Virus record (IMG/VR): IMGVR_UViG_3300025073_000042
Location: 15,952 to 79,951 of that record
Length of the DNA stretch: 64,000 nt
Direction: 5' to 3' (one strand)
From: a virus
Shown: in pieces, positions 499 through 60,089 of the stretch
How the letters are laid out: every line of letters begins with the position of its first letter
Position numbering within the stretch: the first letter of the stretch is position 1
The notes under the pieces: model-generated
Told to the model about the DNA's origin: nothing
Seen by the model: the letters and a program-made list of their open reading frames with translations, nothing else
The model's database searches: none
Made by a program: the position numbers and the translations under genes

Positions 499-562
499 GC
501 AGTCAAGCAGTCAAGCACACAAGCAGTCAAGCACACAAGCAGTCAAGCACACAAGCAGTCAA
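499..562. repeat. Tandem 16-bp repeat GCAGTCAAGCACACAA x3 plus flanking GCAGTCAA half-units
   Basis: Units at 507-522, 523-538 and 539-554; half-units at 499-506 and 555-562. Confidence 0.95.
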
Positions 563-2473: not shown

Positions 2474-3187
2474 ATGGCGATGGAAGTCTGGTTCGAGGTC
2501 GCGTCCGGCGAAGTGCAGCAGCAGGCGCAGGCGCTCATCGCCGAGCACTACGCGCACGCCTACGGCGAGCAGCACGTCACAGCCGTTTTCCGGCACGCCG
2601 CCTACAGCGATAAGGGCGTCTGCCAGGACTGGCAGGCGGGAGGCGTCCGGACCCTCGGCAAGTGGGTGAAGGTCTCCGAGCAGTGGAAATGCCTAATGGT
2701 CGAGCCTGCGCCGGACATCGTGATCCTGCTCAACTACGAGGCGTGGGAAGAACTGACCTCAGCCCAGCGCACGGCGCTGCTCGATCACGAGTTGTACCAC
2801 GGCGTCCAGCGCGCCCACGACATCGGGGAGTTCGGGGAGATCCTCGAACGGCGCGGCGACTACCTGAGCCACATCGCGCTACACTTGCCGGCCGACGCTG
2901 ACCTGCCGCTGAGCGACCCGGAGACCGGCGAGCCTCTCGCGCACGACGAAGTCGCGGCGGAGCGGGCGCGTGCCGCAGAGCGCCTCGCCGCCGATCCGGC
3001 CTTCCGCCGGGCGGCCCGTGACCTCTGCCCGCAGGACGGGGACGGCATCGAGTCGGTGACGCTCAGCTCGCCGGGGCACGAGCCCGTCGTGCTGACCGGC
3101 GAGACGCGGAAGAAGCTCGATCCGATCTTCGACCGTCCAGACTTGGTGGCTGACGCCAAGCGCAAACTTGGACGGGGGGTCGCGTGA
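2474..3187 (+). CDS. Putative phage metallopeptidase
   Basis: HEXXH motif in ALLDHELYH, followed by HDIGEFGEILER.G. Confidence 0.75.
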   Translation: MAMEVWFEVASGEVQQQAQALIAEHYAHAYGEQHVTAVFRHAAYSDKGVCQDWQAGGVRTLGKWVKVSEQWKCLMVEPAPDIVILLNYEAWEELTSAQRTALLDHELYHGVQRAHDIGEFGEILERRGDYLSHIALHLPADADLPLSDPETGEPLAHDEVAAERARAAERLAADPAFRRAARDLCPQDGDGIESVTLSSPGHEPVVLTGETRKKLDPIFDRPDLVADAKRKLGRGVA

Positions 3188-6934: not shown

Positions 6935-7107
6935 CCCGCGAGCAGGCTGACCAAAACATGCGTCGGATGATCCATCGGTCCCTTACGAATCCCGAGCGGC
7001 GTCCGCTCGTTATCGGACCAACAGCCGCCCGCGAGTTCGCTCGGCAATTCGGGAAGCTGCCGAGTGGGATAGTCGTTGCGCAGAGGGTACGGGAGGCGGC
7101 CCCATGA
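6931..7107 (+). CDS. Hypothetical protein
   Basis: ATGA overlaps on both sides. Confidence 0.5.
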   Translation: MTREQADQNMRRMIHRSLTNPERRPLVIGPTAAREFARQFGKLPSGIVVAQRVREAAP

Positions 7108-7448
7108 CCCGCATCCTCGTCCCCGACACCAAGCTCGCCGAGGCCGACCTCGCGCACATCGCCGACTGGCCGGCGGACCTCATCGACATCGACGCGACGG
7201 CGACCGTCCGGCGCGCTGACGGCGAACTGCGGACGGGGGTCGTCTGGTTCTACTCGGAGGACCGCGAGTGGTGCGTGGCTTTCACCTTAGAGCAGGTGCA
7301 GGCGCATCGCCTCCACGACCGCGGCTCGCCGCTCAACTTCCGCCGCCTCGTCGAAGCCGAGATCGAATCTTCCCGCCGCTCGCACATGCAGGGCGGCGCA
7401 TGGGTGAGGCCGGGATGCAGCCCCAGGTCCACGATCCTCCAGCCGTGA
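7104..7448 (+). CDS. Hypothetical protein
   Basis: Coupled ORF with GGAGG SD. Confidence 0.6.
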   Translation: MTRILVPDTKLAEADLAHIADWPADLIDIDATATVRRADGELRTGVVWFYSEDREWCVAFTLEQVQAHRLHDRGSPLNFRRLVEAEIESSRRSHMQGGAWVRPGCSPRSTILQP

Positions 7449-7648
7449 CCGCCGAACTGCTTCCGCGCGGCGGGGACGAGGTGTGCGTCGTCTGTGGGGC
7501 CTCGGGCTGCGCGGGGCGGCCCTACGCGCGCCCCCGGGTGCTGGCGCTCACGCGCGTCGAGCGGCTGTTGGGGGGCGAGTTGCAGCGGGCGGCGGGCCGT
7601 GCGTTCGAGGCGACGTGCCCGAGGTGCGGGGCGACGAATCAGCTGTGA
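7445..7648 (+). CDS. Small zinc-ribbon protein (Com-like C-terminus)
   Basis: CVVC...CPRCGATN; GTGA overlap with upstream stop. Confidence 0.5.
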   Translation: MTAELLPRGGDEVCVVCGASGCAGRPYARPRVLALTRVERLLGGELQRAAGRAFEATCPRCGATNQL

Positions 7649-7652
7649 TGGC

Positions 7653-7681
7653 TTGACGCGATAGGGTGTTCGCAGTATGCT
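7653..7681 (+). promoter_or_regulatory. Sigma70-type promoter
   Basis: TTGACG-17 bp-TATGCT. Confidence 0.75.
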
Positions 7682-7687
7682 GACCTC

Positions 7688-7908
7688 GCTCGTCCCAGGT
7701 AATGACCTCGCGAGGGGTCAGGTGAGCAGCCGCGGTGGGGAATCCGCCCCGTCCCGGAGCGGCACCCCCGGTCCCGTTTGAGGAGCGTGTACCCGGACTC
7801 AATCCCGTGGCCACGGGGAGTTCGGGGGCGCCGGCCATAACCTGGCTAAACCCGCCCATGTCTTCACATGGGCTGAAGGCCGCTCCGCGAGGGGCGGCCT
7901 TCGCTTTG
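7688..7908 (+). ncRNA. Putative ~220-nt structured ncRNA (unassigned family)
   Basis: Between promoter and terminal hairpin; closing stem CCAGGT(A)ATG / CAT(A)ACCTGG; several internal hairpins, two with GCGA tetraloops; no SD-led ORF. Confidence 0.6.
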
Positions 7909-7912
7909 GGGG

Positions 7913-7941
7913 TTGACATCATCGACGGCTCTAGGTATACT
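7913..7941 (+). promoter_or_regulatory. Near-consensus sigma70 promoter driving the GGY-NN array and RAMP-like gene
   Basis: TTGACA (7913-7918)-17 bp-TATACT (7936-7941). Confidence 0.85.
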
Positions 7942-8060
7942 GAAAGCACTTCGAGAGCTGTGCGGGTTTTGCGTTTTCGGACAACCTCTTCGGCCCCGGC
8001 AGCCCGCGCAGCTCTCGAAGGCAGCGCAAGCAGTCGGGGCCGATTTGTGTTTCAATGAGA

Positions 8061-8420
8061 GGCGAGGCGTGGTACGGTACGGCGGGCTCGGGTTTGGTTG
8101 GGCGGGGCAAGGCAGGGCGAGGGTCGTTTGCTATCATCCGCTTCCATTGGCGTGGTGTGGCCGGGTGATGTGTGTTTTGGTGGGTCCTGGCGGGGTGAGG
8201 TTGGGCGAGGCGAGGCGAGGGCTGTAACCGCCATTCTACCTCTTCACGAGGTGAGGCGCGGTCCGGCTTGGTCCGGCTTGGTAAGGTAGGGTAGGGGTCG
8301 TTCGCCATCATCCATCTTCTCACGGTGAGGCAAGGTCAGGTGCGGCAAGGTCAGGTGAGGTGCGGTCTGGTCTGGTGCGGCAAGGTTTGGTCCGGCGAGG
8401 CGAGGCAGGGCGAGGGTCGT
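8061..8420 (+). repeat. Four-unit array of phased GGY-NN pentamer tracts (putative guide-RNA array, VIPR-like)
   Basis: Tracts 8061-8120 (12 pentamers), 8149-8218 (14), 8250-8294 (9) and 8324-8413 (18). Each ends in GGGTCGT or GGGCTGT; tracts are separated by 21-24 nt C/T-rich linkers. Confidence 0.9.
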
Positions 8421-8449
8421 ACCAATCACATCCCAAGGAGGGAGCAGAC

Positions 8450-9007
8450 ATGCAGACGTTCAGGGCAAGGATCGAGGGACTGTCGCCGCTGTTGATGCAC
8501 CGCTTCAGCGAGGAAGCGGAGAAGGCCGTTGAGGAGCAGATCAAGACGAAGAAGGCCGATCACGGGACACCGGAGGAGGAGGCCGAACGCGCCGCATATC
8601 GGATCGACGGCCTGAACAGCGAGCTGTACCTGCCGGGCGAGGCGGTCTACCAGTCGCTCGTGAAGGCTGGTGTCGGCTTCGCCGTCCCTGGCGCGCGGGG
8701 GAAGACCTACAAGGATTCTGTGAAGGGCATGGTCGTCATCCAGCCGGAGTGCATTCCGCTCGGCACTGATGAGTACGTCCTCGACTCGCGCCGGGTACGC
8801 ATCCAGCGCGGAACGTGCATGAGGAAGCGCCCTCGCCTCGATCAGTGGGCGGCGGAGTTCGAGGTTATGATCTTGGACGAGGAGGCGTTGCCACCTGCGA
8901 CGCTACTCGCCATCCTGCAGCGCGCCGGTCAGATGGTCGGGGTGCTCGACTATCGTCCGCGCTTCGGGCGCTTCCAGGTGACGCTGTGGGAGCAGGTCGC
9001 GTCGTAG
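8450..9007 (+). CDS. Solo Cas7/RAMP-like RRM-fold protein (Vipr-like)
   Basis: 185 aa with SD AAGGAGG. IEGLSPLLMH (beta1 + His), LYLPGEAVYQSL (PG...L helix) and C-terminal G-rich loop AGQMVGVLDYRPRFGRFQV are RAMP/Cas7 hallmarks. Confidence 0.8.
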   Translation: MQTFRARIEGLSPLLMHRFSEEAEKAVEEQIKTKKADHGTPEEEAERAAYRIDGLNSELYLPGEAVYQSLVKAGVGFAVPGARGKTYKDSVKGMVVIQPECIPLGTDEYVLDSRRVRIQRGTCMRKRPRLDQWAAEFEVMILDEEALPPATLLAILQRAGQMVGVLDYRPRFGRFQVTLWEQVAS

Positions 9008-9042
9008 GTGTTCGATGGTTGCGGCCAAAGCACGGTCGGACG

Positions 9043-9067
9043 AGACCCGCATTCGTGCGGGTCTTTC
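9043..9067 (+). terminator. Intrinsic terminator closing the array/RAMP cassette
   Basis: AGACCCGCA-TTCG-TGCGGGTCT followed by a short T run. Confidence 0.65.
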
Positions 9068-9294
9068 GTCGTCTGGCCCTTGACAAGCCTCGCCCGCCTG
9101 TGCTAAGAGAAGACCGTCGCACCACAACAGAAGCTCGACGGTCCATCGTGTGTCGTGCCTGAAACGTTGCCCTCAGCGGGGGCAGCGTCTCGTCGGAGGC
9201 CCCGGAGGATCGCCGCGTCAAGCGCGTAGGGCTCAACCCCCTGCGCCTCGACGTTCGGCGACCCCGGGGCCGCCGTCATTTCAGGAGGCACGCA

Positions 9295-9795
9295 ATGGAC
9301 AGCACGGCGCTCCGCCCGAAGATCGCCCCGGTCGGCTTGTTCCGCACCGTTACCACCGACGACGACACCCAGAACCTGCCCGCCGTGAACACGTTCGCGC
9401 GCAACCCCGATGGTGCCTACGACTGGTGCCGGGTCTTCGCGCGCGTCTACTTCCACGGCGACGCGGATGCGACGGTCAATCTGCGCTTCGCGACCGGCGT
9501 GCAGGACGGGGTGAACGGCGTCTCCTCGTCCGTGGAGCTGAAGGGTTGGCTCGTCGAGCCCATCGGCGCGTTCGGCGTCGCAGCGGACCTCACGCCGGAT
9601 ACGCCGGTTGTGGCCGACGGCAGCCACCAGCACCAGACGCCCTCGCTGACCGAGGGCTGCTACGCGATCGACGTGCCGGTGTACGGCATGGACCTGTGGG
9701 TCGCGGTGAGCGGGTTCGCGGGCTACCCGACGGCCTACGATCCCGACTCGCAGGTAGAGTTGGCCGGGTGCTTCTTCAACAAGGCTGGTACCTGA
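9295..9795 (+). CDS. Hypothetical virion protein
   Basis: SD AGGAGG; acidic, beta-rich ORF in the head module. Confidence 0.6.
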   Translation: MDSTALRPKIAPVGLFRTVTTDDDTQNLPAVNTFARNPDGAYDWCRVFARVYFHGDADATVNLRFATGVQDGVNGVSSSVELKGWLVEPIGAFGVAADLTPDTPVVADGSHQHQTPSLTEGCYAIDVPVYGMDLWVAVSGFAGYPTAYDPDSQVELAGCFFNKAGT

Positions 9796-12024: not shown

Positions 12025-13431
12025 GTGGACGCAGGCCTCTATGATGCACTGCTGAACAAGGCGCTGACCAGCGCCTCCGACTCGGGTGGAGCGTGGCAGG
12101 ACCACATCTTCAACCCGATCTTGACGGACGCGGCCAAGAAGAAGCGGCCGATCCTGGAGTACCTCAACATCCGCCCGGCGAACGGCAACCCGCACGTCTT
12201 CCGGCGGCGCGACTCGATGCCCTACATGCACTGGCAGGGCGCGGCTGGCACGCCGGTCGCGACGCAGAGCGGCGTCTCCGGCCCGTCGGTCAACCTGAAG
12301 GTCTGCACGGGCAGTGGCGCCGTGGAGAGCTTCCTCATCTCCACCATCGGTCCCGACAACTTCGACGTGGCTTTGGCCGAGGTCATGGGCTTCATCGAGG
12401 GGACCGCGATGCAGGTGTCGGCCTCGGTGCTGTGGGGCGACGCGGGGCTGAGTGCCACGGGCGTTGAGACCTCCGGCAACGGGAACATCTACATGCCCCC
12501 CGGCCTCGATGCGGACACCGGCATCATGCGGATCAACGGGGCCGGGGCGGCGCTCACGGATGCGCTGTTCCAGAAGCTGCTGGACACGACCAACGTTGCG
12601 GGCATGACCGGCAAGCGGTTCGCGATCATGTCCTCGATGATGGCCTCGCGCCTGGAGGCTGTCACGCAGTCGCTCGGCGCGCGGTACATGGTCGATGAGG
12701 AGGGCCTCTACGGCCGCCGGATCAAGAAGTACCGGGACTGCTACATCCTGGAGAGCGACCAGACCCGCCCGCGGGCGGTCATGGGCGCGATCTCCTGCGC
12801 GGGCAGCGACGGAAGCGGCACGCTCTCGAATGGCACGTACTACTACTACGTGGCGCCCGTCACCGCCGAGGGCGAGCAGCTTCGCCAGGCCGCTGAGGCG
12901 GACGTCACCCTCGCCGCCGGCACGGCGACGCAGAAGGTGACGATCACCATCACCGCCTTCCAGTTCTCCGACACCAACGCGTTGTATGCCGATGCCGTGT
13001 ACTACAAGATCTATCGCGGCACGGGTACTGGCGCGGAGGTGCTCGTCGCGACGGTTCCGGCGCTGTCCTACAGCTCGGGCACCGTGAGCGGCGCAGACAC
13101 GACGCTTGTGGATGACGGCACCGCTGACACGCGCGGCGGCGTGACGGGTTCGCTGCCGGGCGGTGTGTCCTCGGCCGACGACGAGCTGACTGGTACGGTG
13201 ACGGCGCCCGAGGAGTGCATCTTCCTCGTGAACGCCGATCCGGCCGACGGCATCGAGATCGCGGCCAGCGCCAACAAGTCGGCGCAGGCCATCGGCGACA
13301 ACGACCTGTTCGGCCTCGTGCGCCTGGGCAAGTCGGCGCTCAACGAGCCGTTCGCGGTGGGGTCGTTCGTCGCTCCGGTCATCAAGCGCGGCGCGTGCCA
13401 CGGTGTCCTGCGGCGCGTGCTCGCGGCGTAG
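12025..13431 (+). CDS. Major capsid protein (HK97 fold) with inserted Ig/FN3-like domain
   Basis: Position after scaffold; SD GGAGG; VLWGD..., IKKYRDCYILESD; insert GTYYYYVAPV...YKIYRGT. Confidence 0.8.
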   Translation: MDAGLYDALLNKALTSASDSGGAWQDHIFNPILTDAAKKKRPILEYLNIRPANGNPHVFRRRDSMPYMHWQGAAGTPVATQSGVSGPSVNLKVCTGSGAVESFLISTIGPDNFDVALAEVMGFIEGTAMQVSASVLWGDAGLSATGVETSGNGNIYMPPGLDADTGIMRINGAGAALTDALFQKLLDTTNVAGMTGKRFAIMSSMMASRLEAVTQSLGARYMVDEEGLYGRRIKKYRDCYILESDQTRPRAVMGAISCAGSDGSGTLSNGTYYYYVAPVTAEGEQLRQAAEADVTLAAGTATQKVTITITAFQFSDTNALYADAVYYKIYRGTGTGAEVLVATVPALSYSSGTVSGADTTLVDDGTADTRGGVTGSLPGGVSSADDELTGTVTAPEECIFLVNADPADGIEIAASANKSAQAIGDNDLFGLVRLGKSALNEPFAVGSFVAPVIKRGACHGVLRRVLAA

Positions 13432-15557: not shown

Positions 15558-16021
15558 TGGCACGTCGCTGGGCGCCGGTCCCCATCGGGACGTATCTGGA
15601 GAACCTGCAGTCGATCCTGCAGGCTCAGATGCCGGGGCGGCTGGTGACGGCGGGACTACCGGCGGTCGTGACCTGGACGTACCAGGACGTGATGTTCGAT
15701 TCGGACGACAAGCTGCCCCAGGTCTGCGTAGGCGCGAAGTGGGTGCATCGCCCGAAGGGCGGCGGGGGCAGCTTCGAGCCCATCTACTCGACGGAGATCA
15801 TCTGCGCGTTCCCTTGGCTGGGGACGGGCGACGGCTACAAGGACGGGGCGGCGATGGCGTCGATTGCCGAGGCGCTCGTATACTACAACATCGGCAACGG
15901 CTACGAGGACGTGGTGGAGCGCACGGGGGTCGGCATGGCGGCGGGCTGGCGCGAGAGTCCTCCGCTGTGGCAGGGCGGGGTGTGGCGCGGCGAAGTGGTC
16001 GGCAGCCTGCTGTACTTCTGA
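15557..16021 (+). CDS. Putative tail terminator
   Basis: Synteny before tail tube; size. Confidence 0.55.
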   Translation: MARRWAPVPIGTYLENLQSILQAQMPGRLVTAGLPAVVTWTYQDVMFDSDDKLPQVCVGAKWVHRPKGGGGSFEPIYSTEIICAFPWLGTGDGYKDGAAMASIAEALVYYNIGNGYEDVVERTGVGMAAGWRESPPLWQGGVWRGEVVGSLLYF

Positions 16022-44967: not shown

Positions 44968-44970
44968 TTG

Positions 44971-44999
44971 TTGACTTCGCGGTCTCGACATGGTACTAT
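44971..44999 (+). promoter_or_regulatory. Sigma70-type promoter
   Basis: TTGACT-17 bp-TACTAT. Confidence 0.7.
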
Positions 45000-45205
45000 G
45001 TAAAGGCCTGCGGAGGCTACCACAACTGACCTAAGATCACCTCGCCCGACTTCGACCCGCCTCCGCAGGCACGGTCGGAGTCGGGCGTTGTGTTTCCGGC
45101 GAGGGTGGGGCGGGATCGAGACCTGCCAGTTCTGGCGTTGGCCCGCCAGACCGCCTTAGGACATAGGGGAGGCTCACCCTCGGCCAGCCGGATGGGAGGA
45201 ATTGG

Positions 45206-58979: not shown

Positions 58980-60089
58980 ATGAGTAGTCTTGCAGCTCCC
59001 ATGCCCTACTTCGGCGGAAAGTCCCGCATCGCTCCCTACGTCTGGTCGCGCCTCGGGGATACGCCCAACTACTGCGAGCCATTCCTGGGTTCGGCGGCTA
59101 TGCTGCTCGCGCGACCCGACGAGCATGAGTGGTGGGACCGTACCGAGACGGTGAACGACGCCGACTCGTTCCTCGCGAACACGTGGCGGGCCATCCAGCA
59201 GGCCCCCGAGGAGGTCGCCCGTTGGGCCGATAGTCCGGTCATCGAGCAGGACCTCCATGCCCGACACGTCTGGCTGCGCGGGGAACGGTCGGAGTTGACG
59301 CGCAAGCTCGAAGGTGACCCGGACTTCTACGATCCGAAGGCCGCGGGCTGGTGGCTGTGGGGGATGTGCTGTTGGATCGGCGGAGGTTGGTGCGGACCCT
59401 CGGGCAACGGTCCCTGGGAGTCCATTGACGGGGAGTTCGTGAAGACCTCGGGTGCCGGGCAGAAACGCAAGCTCCCGCACCTCGGGGACGCGGGGATGGG
59501 CGTGCTCCGCAAGCGCCCGCACCTCGGGGACGCGGGGAGGGGCGTGCACCGCCAGCGCCCACACCTCGGGGACGCGGGGAGGGACTCCGCCGATACCGTC
59601 TGCGAGGACTGGGCCGAACACCTCGGCGACTACATGCGCAGCCTCGCCAACCGCCTCCGCCGCGTCCGCATCTGCTGCGGGGATTGGTCGCGCATCATGG
59701 GGCCGACGCCGACGGTGAAGTTGGGCTTGACAGGCGTCTTCCTCGACCCTCCCTACGACCTCGCCGAACGCGACGAGGGCTGCTACTCGACAGACTCCGA
59801 GGGCGTTGCGCGGGATGTGCGGCAGTGGTGCGTGGAGCACGGCTCCGACCCGAAGCTCCGCATCGCGCTCTGCGGCTACCGGGGCGAGGGCCACGAGGAA
59901 CTCGAAGACCTGGGCTGGGAGCCCTGGTACTGGAAAGCGAGAGGCGGCTACGGGTCGCAGGCCGACGAGAACGGGAGGGGACGCGCGAACTCGGCGAGGG
60001 AGTGCGCGTGGTTCAGCCCGCACTGCCAGCCAGACGCGGCGAAGATGCCGGAGCCAGACCTGTTGACGTGGAAGGACCGCACGCCGTGA
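58980..60089 (+). CDS. DNA adenine methyltransferase (Dam/D12-like)
   Basis: PYFGGKS, EPFLGS, VND and FLDPPY. Confidence 0.88.
   Translation: MSSLAAPMPYFGGKSRIAPYVWSRLGDTPNYCEPFLGSAAMLLARPDEHEWWDRTETVNDADSFLANTWRAIQQAPEEVARWADSPVIEQDLHARHVWLRGERSELTRKLEGDPDFYDPKAAGWWLWGMCCWIGGGWCGPSGNGPWESIDGEFVKTSGAGQKRKLPHLGDAGMGVLRKRPHLGDAGRGVHRQRPHLGDAGRDSADTVCEDWAEHLGDYMRSLANRLRRVRICCGDWSRIMGPTPTVKLGLTGVFLDPPYDLAERDEGCYSTDSEGVARDVRQWCVEHGSDPKLRIALCGYRGEGHEELEDLGWEPWYWKARGGYGSQADENGRGRANSARECAWFSPHCQPDAAKMPEPDLLTWKDRTP
59475..59583 (+). repeat. In-frame 42-bp tandem repeat (PHLGDAG x3)
   Basis: Units start at 59475, 59517 and 59559. Confidence 0.9.

What the first reader, a model, noticed from the sequence alone, without database searches (positions are those of the whole stretch)
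8061..8413. The NN dinucleotide strings may spell gapped targets, possibly codon positions 1-2 with the wobble base skipped
Seen NN strings. T1: GA GT AC AC GG CG TT TG GG AA AG GA. T2: GT GT CG GA GT TT GG CT GG GA TG GA GA GA. T3: GA GC CC TT CC TT AA AG AG. T4: GA AA CA GC AA CA GA GC CT CT GC AA TT CC GA GA AG GA. There is no TA, AT or TC, and 25 of 53 start with G. Inference: read as NNx triplets they give protein-like patterns (T4: [DE][KN][QH]A[KN][QH][DE]ALLA[KN][FL]P; T2: VVR[DE]V[FL]GLG[DE][WC]). This is what one would expect if the target is NN-x-NN-x in a coding region, which would make targeting insensitive to synonymous escape. I found no matching target in this window by eye.
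Basis: inference. Interest (0 to 1): 0.8.

Follow-up and report, generated by a model that had tools for sequence, protein, structure and literature searches.

The report
Phage VIPR guide-RNA array with Vipr gene
The five-base GGY-NN repeats are four guide-RNA genes of a VIPR system, a CRISPR-like phage weapon first described in 2026 preprints, so this is a clear new example of a known kind, and what its guides target remains unknown.

Summary
At 8061-8413 there are 53 GGY-NN pentamers in four tracts, on the + strand only, with exactly the NN strings listed. The pattern gives 42 matches against about 1 expected by chance.

A blind DNA-pattern scan of IMG/VR returned 120 or more such arrays. 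Of these, 87 have a Vipr homolog alongside.

The locus is therefore a VIPR system (bioRxiv 10.64898/2026.04.26.720920, .720927 and 2026.10.15.759431).

I found no target for these four guides. Nothing exceeded shuffled controls in the phage's own genome or in 1.1 Mb of other VIPR-bearing loci. Eight exact-seed scans of IMG/VR and JGI metagenomes gave only chance-level hits. Host genomes could not be reached.

NN composition in high-GC loci fits codon positions 1-2.

This scan has noted VIPR loci before, in at least 340 other genomes. The verdict is a new member of a known kind, of modest interest.

The parts
7913..7941 (+). Sigma-70-type promoter (TTGACA, 17 nt, TATACT) that most likely drives the array and vipr as one transcript
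   Evidence: It matches 11 of 12 consensus positions; 2 such sites were found in 7000-9500 against 0.3 expected. Its role as the operon promoter is inferred from position only.
7948..8053 (+). Structured 5' leader: a long hairpin, then a short hairpin ending in TTGTGTTTC
   Evidence: RNA fold gives -52.8 kcal/mol, z -3.5, and 0 of 200 shuffles fold as well. A second copy of this promoter-plus-leader design lies at 44970-45096.
8061..8148 (+). vrRNA1 (T1): 12 GGY-NN units (8061-8120; NN = GA GT AC AC GG CG TT TG GG AA AG GA) plus a 3' tail starting GGGTCGTTTGCTATCATCC
   Evidence: One unit is degenerate (GCT). The ends of the mature RNA are inferred, not measured.
8149..8249 (+). vrRNA2 (T2): 14 units (8149-8218; NN = GT GT CG GA GT TT GG CT GG GA TG GA GA GA) plus a divergent tail starting GGGCTGTAACCGCC
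   Evidence: Three units depart from GGY (TGT, GTT, GTC), so this guide may be impaired.
8250..8323 (+). vrRNA3 (T3): 9 perfect units (8250-8294; NN = GA GC CC TT CC TT AA AG AG) plus a tail starting GGGTCGTTCGCCATCATCC
8324..8440 (+). vrRNA4 (T4): 18 perfect units (8324-8413; NN = GA AA CA GC AA CA GA GC CT CT GC AA TT CC GA GA AG GA) plus a tail starting GGGTCGTACCAATCACATCC that runs into the vipr ribosome-binding site
   Evidence: An internal 15-nt (3-unit) duplication was seen by TRF.
8450..9007 (+). vipr gene: a 185-aa minimal RAMP (Cas7-like) protein, with AAGGAGG about 7 nt before the ATG

Best explanation
This is a VIPR (Viral Interference Programmable Repeat) locus of an uncultured high-GC tailed phage. 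One promoter transcribes a structured leader, four vrRNA genes and the vipr gene.

Each vrRNA is a run of GGY-NN pentamers capped by a short conserved 3' tail. By homology with the SUSP1 system, one Vipr protomer binds each pentamer, and the protomers form a helical filament. The filament buries the two G and the pyrimidine and presents the two N bases.

The presented dinucleotides pair with double-stranded DNA that reads NN-x-NN-x, skipping every third base. The skipped base usually falls on the codon wobble position. Binding silences transcription of the bound gene, most likely in a competing phage, satellite or prophage of the same host.

Shown here:
- the repeat anatomy
- the strand bias
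- the promoter
- the RAMP fold
- homology to SUSP1 Vipr
- conservation of the GGY-binding residues
- the family-wide linkage of array and gene

Taken from the preprints on homologous systems: the filament, the 1-nt skip rule and the silencing.

Inferred for this locus: expression, RNA processing, activity and the kind of target. The targets themselves are unknown.
For: 1. Repeat anatomy. There are 53 GGY-NN units in 4 tracts on the + strand only, far above chance.
2. Linkage. 87 of these carry a homolog of the window's 185-aa protein, 85 on the same strand, at a median 60 nt from the nearest tract. It is the only recurrent partner gene.
3. Link to the type system. The window protein hits the Vipr gene of Escherichia phage SUSP1 (E 2e-9, 26% identity, 97% coverage; reciprocal E 2e-13). 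The SUSP1 locus shows the one upstream and three downstream GGYNN tracts that the paper describes.
5. Contact residues. The residues that hold G1, G2 and Y3 in the cryo-EM structure (H17, R138, D177, W178, R179, E71) align to H17, R127, D167, Y168, R169 and E64. All are invariant or nearly so in 26 relatives.
6. No self-target. No match in the phage's own genome exceeds shuffled guides, as the paper reports for VIPR.
7. No CRISPR. There is no CRISPR-like array and no Cas1 in the record.
8. Composition. In high-GC loci, 125 of 148 tracts fit codon positions 1-2 best. TA frequency is 0.020 against 0.022 predicted by that model and 0.043 under independence.
Against: - No natural target was found for any of the four guides.
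- The 3' tails do not fold better than shuffled sequence (z -1.35 to +0.47). This contrasts with the pseudoknot tail of the SUSP1 clade.
- No vap accessory gene was recognised. The phage has no vap1 homolog, and the downstream gene looks like a beta-sandwich virion protein.
- T2 has three units that break GGY. The cryo-EM contacts predict these should weaken binding.
- The last three NN of all four guides are purine-only (AA/GA, AG/GA, GA/AG). This looks like scaffold rather than free guide positions.
- Transcription, processing and RNP formation were not observed.
- The composition test is ambiguous in low-GC loci and could partly reflect an intrinsic A/T preference at the NN positions.
Confidence: 0.9

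Rival explanations
1. It is a genuine VIPR locus, but the array is not used against competitors in the published way. The guides could be decaying or inactive. Alternatively they could regulate the phage's own or the host's genes through imperfect sites, or act as decoys that soak up a rival's Vipr.
For: No target was found. T1 and T2 carry degenerate units. T4 contains a 15-nt internal duplication that looks like slippage rather than target-derived sequence. The October 2026 preprint shows that vrRNAs can serve to redirect VIPR to decoy sites.
Against: T3 and T4 are perfect GGY over 9 and 18 units. The promoter is near consensus. The vipr gene is intact with all contact residues. A negative target search in databases that lack the host says little. 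In the paper only about half of the SUSP1-clade guides (20 of 41) had identifiable targets, even with a host pangenome.
Confidence: 0.06
2. The repeats are only a periodic binding platform for the RAMP-like protein, with no sequence-specific guiding. Examples would be an RNA scaffold, a translational or transcriptional leader of the late genes, or a G-quadruplex-forming 5' region. On this reading the NN positions are simply unconstrained.
For: The array lies in the 5' untranslated region of vipr, just before the head genes. GG-N3 repeats could in principle form two-tetrad quadruplexes (inference). The NN positions show some intrinsic bias: A is over-represented at N1 in all GC classes.
Against: In homologous systems, changing only the NN bases reprograms DNA binding and silencing. 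Arrays lie downstream of vipr in most loci (53 downstream only, 12 upstream only), so they are not a leader as such. In high-GC loci NN composition tracks codon positions 1-2.
Confidence: 0.03
3. The repeats are a DNA-level element such as a packaging (pac/cos) site or terminase-binding repeats, or a meaningless microsatellite.
For: The position lies between the terminase gene (before and at the window start) and the head genes.
Against: The pattern is strictly strand-specific and always on the coding strand of the adjacent RAMP gene. It is linked to that gene in phages of unrelated types and GC contents. In SUSP1 the tracts are transcribed and co-purify with the protein.
Confidence: 0.01

Closest known systems
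VIPR system of Escherichia phage SUSP1 (type II; Vipr + vap1 + vrRNAs). bioRxiv 10.64898/2026.04.26.720920, 10.64898/2026.04.26.720927, 10.64898/2026.10.15.759431
   Same: - A homologous single small RAMP protein (E 2e-9; the GGY-contact residues H, R, D, aromatic, R and E are conserved).
- Guide genes built of GGY-NN pentamers that end in GGGT and a tail.
- Several guides per locus, on the same strand as vipr.
- A phage-borne locus with no CRISPR array, no Cas1 and no self-target.
   Different: - Only 26% protein identity.
- All four guides lie upstream of vipr in one tight array behind one promoter and a structured leader; SUSP1 has one upstream and three downstream.
- T4 has 18 units; 9-16 are reported for the studied clades.
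- The tail is short and pyrimidine-rich, without a predicted hairpin or pseudoknot.
- The last three NN are purine-only in all four guides.
- No vap1 homolog or other recognisable accessory gene.
- The host is unknown (a 67% GC phage).
- The VIPR type (I-VII) could not be assigned, because the paper's tree and tables are not available here.
Cas7 backbone subunits of class 1 CRISPR effectors (Csm3 of type III-A, Cas7 of type VII, Csf2 of type IV-A)
   Different: - 8-17% sequence identity.
- No partner Cas5, Cas6, Cas8, Cas10 or Cas11, no CRISPR repeats or spacers, and no Cas1 or other adaptation genes.
- The period is 5 nt, with 3 buried and 2 pairing bases, rather than 6 nt with 5 pairing and 1 flipped.
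- The guide is itself the repeat.
Orphan ('solo') vrRNAs of phages and satellites (bioRxiv 10.64898/2026.10.15.759431)
   Same: The same pentamer guide format. These elements show that vrRNA tracts can act apart from a linked vipr gene.
   Different: Here the array is linked to an intact vipr gene. 33 of the 120 IMG/VR loci found by pattern had no recognisable Vipr and may include such solo guides, divergent Vipr types or cut contigs.

Membership tests
VIPR system | The Vipr protein is homologous to an experimentally characterised Vipr | tested here: met
   tblastn of the window protein hits the SUSP1 vipr gene (NC_028808.2 28495-29061) at E 2e-9, 26% identity and 97% coverage. The reverse search gives E 2e-13. 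The annotated gene and its flanking tracts match the paper's locus description.
VIPR system | Conservation of the residues that read G1, G2 and Y3 of each repeat | tested here: met
   SUSP1 H17, R138, D177, W178, R179 and E71 align to window H17, R127, D167, Y168, R169 and E64. In A1 these columns read H 22/26, R 26/26, D 26/26, Y 25/26, R 26/26 and E 25/26. K33, which contacts the skip-base backbone, did not align to a conserved lysine.
VIPR system | vrRNA genes: tandem GGY-NN (YNNGG) pentamers, at least 4 units, flanking vipr on its strand | tested here: met
   The four tracts have 12, 14, 9 and 18 units, and 49 of 53 units are perfect GGY. They lie 37 nt upstream of vipr on the same strand.
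VIPR system | A conserved, structured 3' tail after each repeat tract | tested here: inconclusive
   A shared motif GGG(TC)GT...ATCATCC is present in T1, T3 and partly T4, while T2 diverges. No fold better than shuffles was predicted. Four sequences are too few for covariation analysis.
VIPR system | An accessory vap gene beside vipr (typical, varies by type) | tested here: inconclusive
   The whole phage has no vap1 homolog (best E 0.52). No neighbouring gene recurs among the 120 loci. The neighbours have no Pfam or PADLOC match. The downstream 166-aa protein resembles beta-sandwich virion proteins. An unrecognised vap cannot be excluded.
VIPR system | vrRNAs are expressed as RNAs of about 100 nt and co-purify with Vipr | not testable with these tools
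Only a promoter prediction is available.
VIPR system | Natural targets under the 1-nt skip rule (at least 80% NN match, above nulls) | tested here: inconclusive
   No match exceeded shuffled guides in the phage's own genome or in 1.1 Mb of other loci at any skip length. Eight exact-seed scans gave 0-5 hits each, and none extended beyond the seed. Host and sample-matched sequences could not be searched.
VIPR system | No self-targeting | tested here: met
   The best identity to the phage's own genome is 0.61-0.78 at skip 1, which is within the range of shuffled guides.
Class 1 CRISPR-Cas effector (Cas7 as a subunit) | A CRISPR array of direct repeats and spacers, and partner cas genes | tested here: not met
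   TRF finds no CRISPR-like array in the window. The record has no Cas1. Vipr is the only gene that recurs beside the arrays in the IMG/VR loci, and the four genes nearest the array have no PADLOC (defence/cas) match. The other cas families were not searched across the phage. The locus shares the fold and the logic of Cas7 but is not a CRISPR-Cas system.

The most novel reading that the evidence does not exclude
This locus may represent a VIPR variant that differs from the characterised type II systems. It has no vap gene. Its guide array sits in the leader of the vipr transcript, behind a promoter-plus-hairpin module reused elsewhere in the phage. Its tail is short and unstructured, and the last three repeats (purine-only NN in all four guides) belong to the constant handle. 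If so, not every NN is a guide position, and the effective guides are 9, 11, 6 and 14-15 units long. That would modify the published statement that specificity lies entirely in the NN bases of all repeats, and it would change how targets should be searched.
Probability: 0.2. Interest if true: 0.45.

Novelty: new member of a known kind. Interest (0 to 1): 0.3.

Why it matters
VIPR is a newly described way of recognising DNA with RNA, and a proposed ancestor of CRISPR effectors. This locus adds a well-preserved example from a high-GC, uncultured phage far from the E. coli and Pseudomonas systems studied so far (26% protein identity), with the GGY-reading residues intact.

Two results may be useful beyond this window:
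- A bare DNA pattern recovers VIPR loci from IMG/VR with about 70% of hits next to a Vipr gene. Arrays can therefore be found without the protein.
- In high-GC phages the NN composition follows codon positions 1-2. This supports wobble skipping without needing known targets.

The purine-only 3' units suggest that target searches should not assume every NN pairs.

Tried and rejected
**Targets in the phage's own genome.** I scanned skip lengths 0-3 against 100 shuffled guides each. Nothing exceeded the shuffles.

**Targets in other loci.** I scanned 272 tracts from all fetched loci against 2.27 Mb (both strands), with reversed-guide controls. No skip length stood out. The window's four guides against 128 loci gave the same result. 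This data set is too small to reproduce the published skip rule.

| Guide, units | Collection | Hits |
|---|---|---|
| T4, 2-10 | IMG/VR | 5 |
| T1, 2-10 | IMG/VR | 0 |
| T2, 2-10 | IMG/VR | 5 |
| T3, 1-9 | IMG/VR | 0 |
| T4, 9-17 | IMG/VR | 2 |
| T2, 6-14 | IMG/VR | 1 |
| T4, 2-11 | JGI metagenomes | 0 |
| T1, 3-12 | JGI metagenomes | 5 |

- The hits fall in unrelated genes: a large unknown protein, an intein-bearing terminase and a MazG-like protein.
- Others fall in non-coding or shadow frames. Some contigs have 37-55% GC.
- None extends beyond the forced seed.
- About 2 hits per 18-base seed are expected by chance, on my own rough guess of the collection's size. I therefore reject these hits as targets.
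- The best overall matches were 23/28 for T2 in L139 and L150, and 26/36 for T4 in L134. At this database size these are not significant.
- Half of the seeds include the semi-constant 3' units, which may not pair. This weakens those negative results.

**MazG lead.** The phage has no MazG homolog, and the match breaks before the conserved EExGE motif.

**Host identification.**
- The genome-contig scan with the Vipr alignment gave only 7 distant loci, at 42% identity or less, in archaea, Chloroflexota and Verrucomicrobiota.
- A host-like glycosidase gene finds at most about 33% identity over long matches in 201 Verrucomicrobiota genomes.
- The Armatimonadota suggestion could not be tested.

**Other checks.**
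- Rfam finds no family for the array, the leader or the upstream RNA.
- Pfam and PADLOC find nothing for Vipr or its neighbours.
- Tail folds are not better than shuffles.

**Tools unavailable.**
I therefore could not compare the arrays of the 14 contigs that encode the identical Vipr.

**Early ideas dropped.** I first considered a TRAP-like ring-binding site, a CsrA-type sponge, Shine-Dalgarno-like standby sites, a Rho utilisation site on the other strand, telomere-like repeats and a pentapeptide-coding repeat. All were dropped once the linkage to the RAMP gene and the literature were found.

Full report
**The observation**

The stretch 8061-8413 is a strikingly regular series of five-base units, GG, a pyrimidine, then two free bases. 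The four tracts are:

| Tract | Coordinates | Units |
|---|---|---|
| T1 | 8061-8120 | 12 |
| T2 | 8149-8218 | 14 |
| T3 | 8250-8294 | 9 |
| T4 | 8324-8413 | 18 |

- 49 of 53 units are perfect GGY, and the third base is a pyrimidine in all 53.
- A five-unit pattern with one mismatch allowed matches 42 times in the window, against 1.03 expected from shuffles. 36 of these matches lie in this array.
- In the whole virus record (79,951 b, estimated 96% complete; the window is bases 15952-79951) a seven-unit pattern matches 27 times forward and never in reverse. All matches are here.
- Every tract ends in GGG(TC/CT)GT followed by a pyrimidine-rich stretch of 25-30 nt.

**Surroundings**

- A near-consensus promoter (TTGACA, 17 nt, TATACT; 7913-7941) precedes the array.
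- The first 105 nt of the predicted transcript fold into a strong hairpin (-52.8 kcal/mol, z -3.5).
- The last tail runs into AAGGAGG and the ATG at 8450 of a 185-aa gene. That gene matches phrog_4652 (unknown function, E 1e-22) and has no Pfam family.
- The window is phage DNA. The large terminase gene ends at the window start. A phage metallopeptidase lies at 2474-3187, and a major-head-like gene at 12025-13431.
- Rfam has no family for any of this region.

**Linkage of array and gene**

I scanned IMG/VR with nothing but nine GGYNN units.

- A profile of the window protein's relatives finds a homolog in 87 of the 120 loci.
- 85 of these are on the strand of the array, at a median 60 nt from the nearest tract.
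- Arrays lie downstream only in 53 loci, on both sides in 19 and upstream only in 12.
- All-against-all clustering shows no other recurrent neighbour.
- A more distant homolog (35% identity, L001) has no array within the 1 kb upstream that I read.

Array and protein therefore form a two-part module found in many kinds of phage.

**What it is**

A literature search found three 2026 preprints from one laboratory describing exactly this module as VIPR.

- Vipr is a minimal RAMP of about 20 kDa.
- vrRNAs consist of 9-16 YNNGG repeats with a 3' tail.
- One protomer binds each repeat in a helical filament. The filament buries GGY and presents NN.
- The NN bases pair with double-stranded DNA, skipping every third base. 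The skipped base falls mostly at codon position 3.
- Binding silences transcription of genes in competing phages, satellites and prophages.
- There is no PAM and no self-targeting.

**Membership tests**

- The window protein hits the SUSP1 vipr gene directly (E 2e-9, 97% coverage; reciprocal E 2e-13).
- The SUSP1 locus shows the one upstream and three downstream tracts that the paper reports.
- The residues that hold G1, G2 and Y3 in the cryo-EM structure (H17, R138, D177, W178, R179, E71) align to H17, R127, D167, Y168, R169 and E64. These are invariant or nearly so in 26 relatives.
- The record has no CRISPR-like array and no Cas1.

I therefore file the locus as a VIPR system with high confidence.

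This is the published 1-nt skip rule, so for the family it is established by others' experiments.

- Against the phage's own genome, no skip length (0-3) beats shuffled guides. This also fits the reported absence of self-targets.
- Against 1.1 Mb of other VIPR-bearing viral loci, neither the window's guides nor 272 tracts taken together show any excess at any skip length. This database is too small to be informative.
- The public collections accept only exact patterns. I therefore used seeds of 9-10 units at skip 1 and checked whether hits extend over the rest of the guide.
- Six IMG/VR scans and two JGI metagenome scans gave 0-5 hits each.
- The hits lie in unrelated genes or non-coding frames, some in contigs of 37-55% GC. 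None extends beyond the seed.
- On my own rough guess of the collection's size, about two chance hits are expected per 18-base seed in IMG/VR. I read all hits as chance.

The host could not be identified. The relevant search, against host genomes and co-occurring phages, therefore remains undone.

**An indirect test of codon phase**

If NN pairs with codon positions 1-2 on either strand, NN composition should resemble those positions and not position 3. This is easiest to see in high-GC phages.

- In 62 loci of at least 60% GC (148 tracts, 1757 NN), 125 tracts fit the position 1-2 model best: 76 sense and 49 antisense. 17 fit other phases and 6 fit background.
- After strand symmetrisation the correlation with positions 1-2 is 0.58, against 0.18 and -0.07 for the other phases.
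- TA occurs at 0.020, against 0.022 predicted by codon 1-2 and 0.043 under independence.
- For this window, T4 favours the sense 1-2 model by 3.9 log units over background. T1 and T3 favour it only marginally.
- In low-GC loci the test does not discriminate, and A is over-represented at N1 everywhere.

This is supportive evidence, not proof.

**Differences from the studied systems**

- All four guides sit upstream of vipr, in one tight array behind one promoter.
- T4 has 18 units. Longer tracts, up to 42 units, are common in IMG/VR.
- The tails are short, pyrimidine-rich and not predicted to fold.
- The last three NN of all four guides are purine-only, and the first NN is GA in three of the four. 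This suggests that the constant handle extends into the repeats.
- T2 has three non-GGY units.
- No vap gene was recognised.
- The VIPR type could not be assigned without the paper's tree.

**Verdict**

The targets remain unknown.

The kind of system is already described, and this scan has noted it in at least 340 other genomes. This locus is a new member of a known kind.

Noticed in passing
window 8101-8120, 8204-8218, 8280-8294, 8394-8413: The last three NN of all four guides are purine-only (T1 AA AG GA; T2 GA GA GA; T3 AA AG AG; T4 GA AG GA), and the first NN is GA in three of the four. Related IMG/VR loci also show semi-constant last units within a locus (L120, L010). The constant 3' handle may extend into the repeats, so not every NN need be a guide position.
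   Followed up: partly
window 44970-45120: There is a second copy of the promoter-plus-leader design: TTGACT, 17 nt, TACTAT, then a long hairpin and a short hairpin ending in TTGTGTTTC. It is followed by GGCGAGGGTG, which resembles the last unit and tail start of a vrRNA. It may be a shared regulatory module or a remnant of a guide.
   Followed up: partly
window 7653-7908: A possible stand-alone structured RNA of about 220 nt lies just upstream of the VIPR promoter. It has its own weaker promoter (TTGACG, 17 nt, TATGCT) and ends in a GC-rich hairpin followed by a T-containing run (read by eye; the terminator scan did not flag it). Rfam gives only a sub-threshold match to its terminal hairpin (P26, E 0.12).
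   Followed up: partly
L134:2758-2783 (IMGVR_UViG_3300036761_000069): T4 units 2-10 match exactly, and in frame, the codons for NQAKHDALL of a MazG-like pyrophosphatase gene (26 of 36 bases over the whole guide). The match breaks before the conserved EExGE motif, and this phage has no MazG. I read it as chance. It is recorded because another note of this scan reported a VIPR guide on a phage MazG.
   Followed up: partly
L058:62-312 and L081:3920-4170: Two IMG/VR loci carry compact arrays of GGC-NN units in which successive guides are separated only by GGTAC plus two bases, with no tail. This is probably the 'staggered' array type mentioned in the VIPR preprint.
   Followed up: no
33 of the 120 loci L010-L129 (for example L025, L016, L110, L072): Pattern-found GGYNN arrays, some with 7-10 tracts, have no Vipr homolog detectable with my profile within 4 kb. 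About ten sit within about 700 nt of a locus end. The rest may be solo vrRNA loci or carry very divergent Vipr types.
   Followed up: partly
L133:6003-6028 and L135:4613-4638: A 971-aa terminase large subunit, homologous to this phage's own terminase, appears to carry an intein inserted just before the Walker A GKS motif. It was seen only because a chance seed hit fell next to the insertion point.
   Followed up: no
window 499-562 and 59466-59583: Two other tandem repeats are present: an 8/16-nt unit (GCAGTCAA, 8 copies) just after the terminase gene, and a 42-nt unit (2.8 copies, 93% matches).
   Followed up: no
window 9295-9795: The gene after vipr encodes a 166-aa protein whose nearest protein-atlas clusters are viral, with a weak lead to the Bbp16 family and beta-sandwich structural matches. 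It is probably a virion protein rather than a VIPR accessory protein.
   Followed up: partly
window 15964-15996: A short run of 6-7 GGYNN-like units lies inside a likely coding region. It is probably chance in a G+C-rich gene.
   Followed up: no
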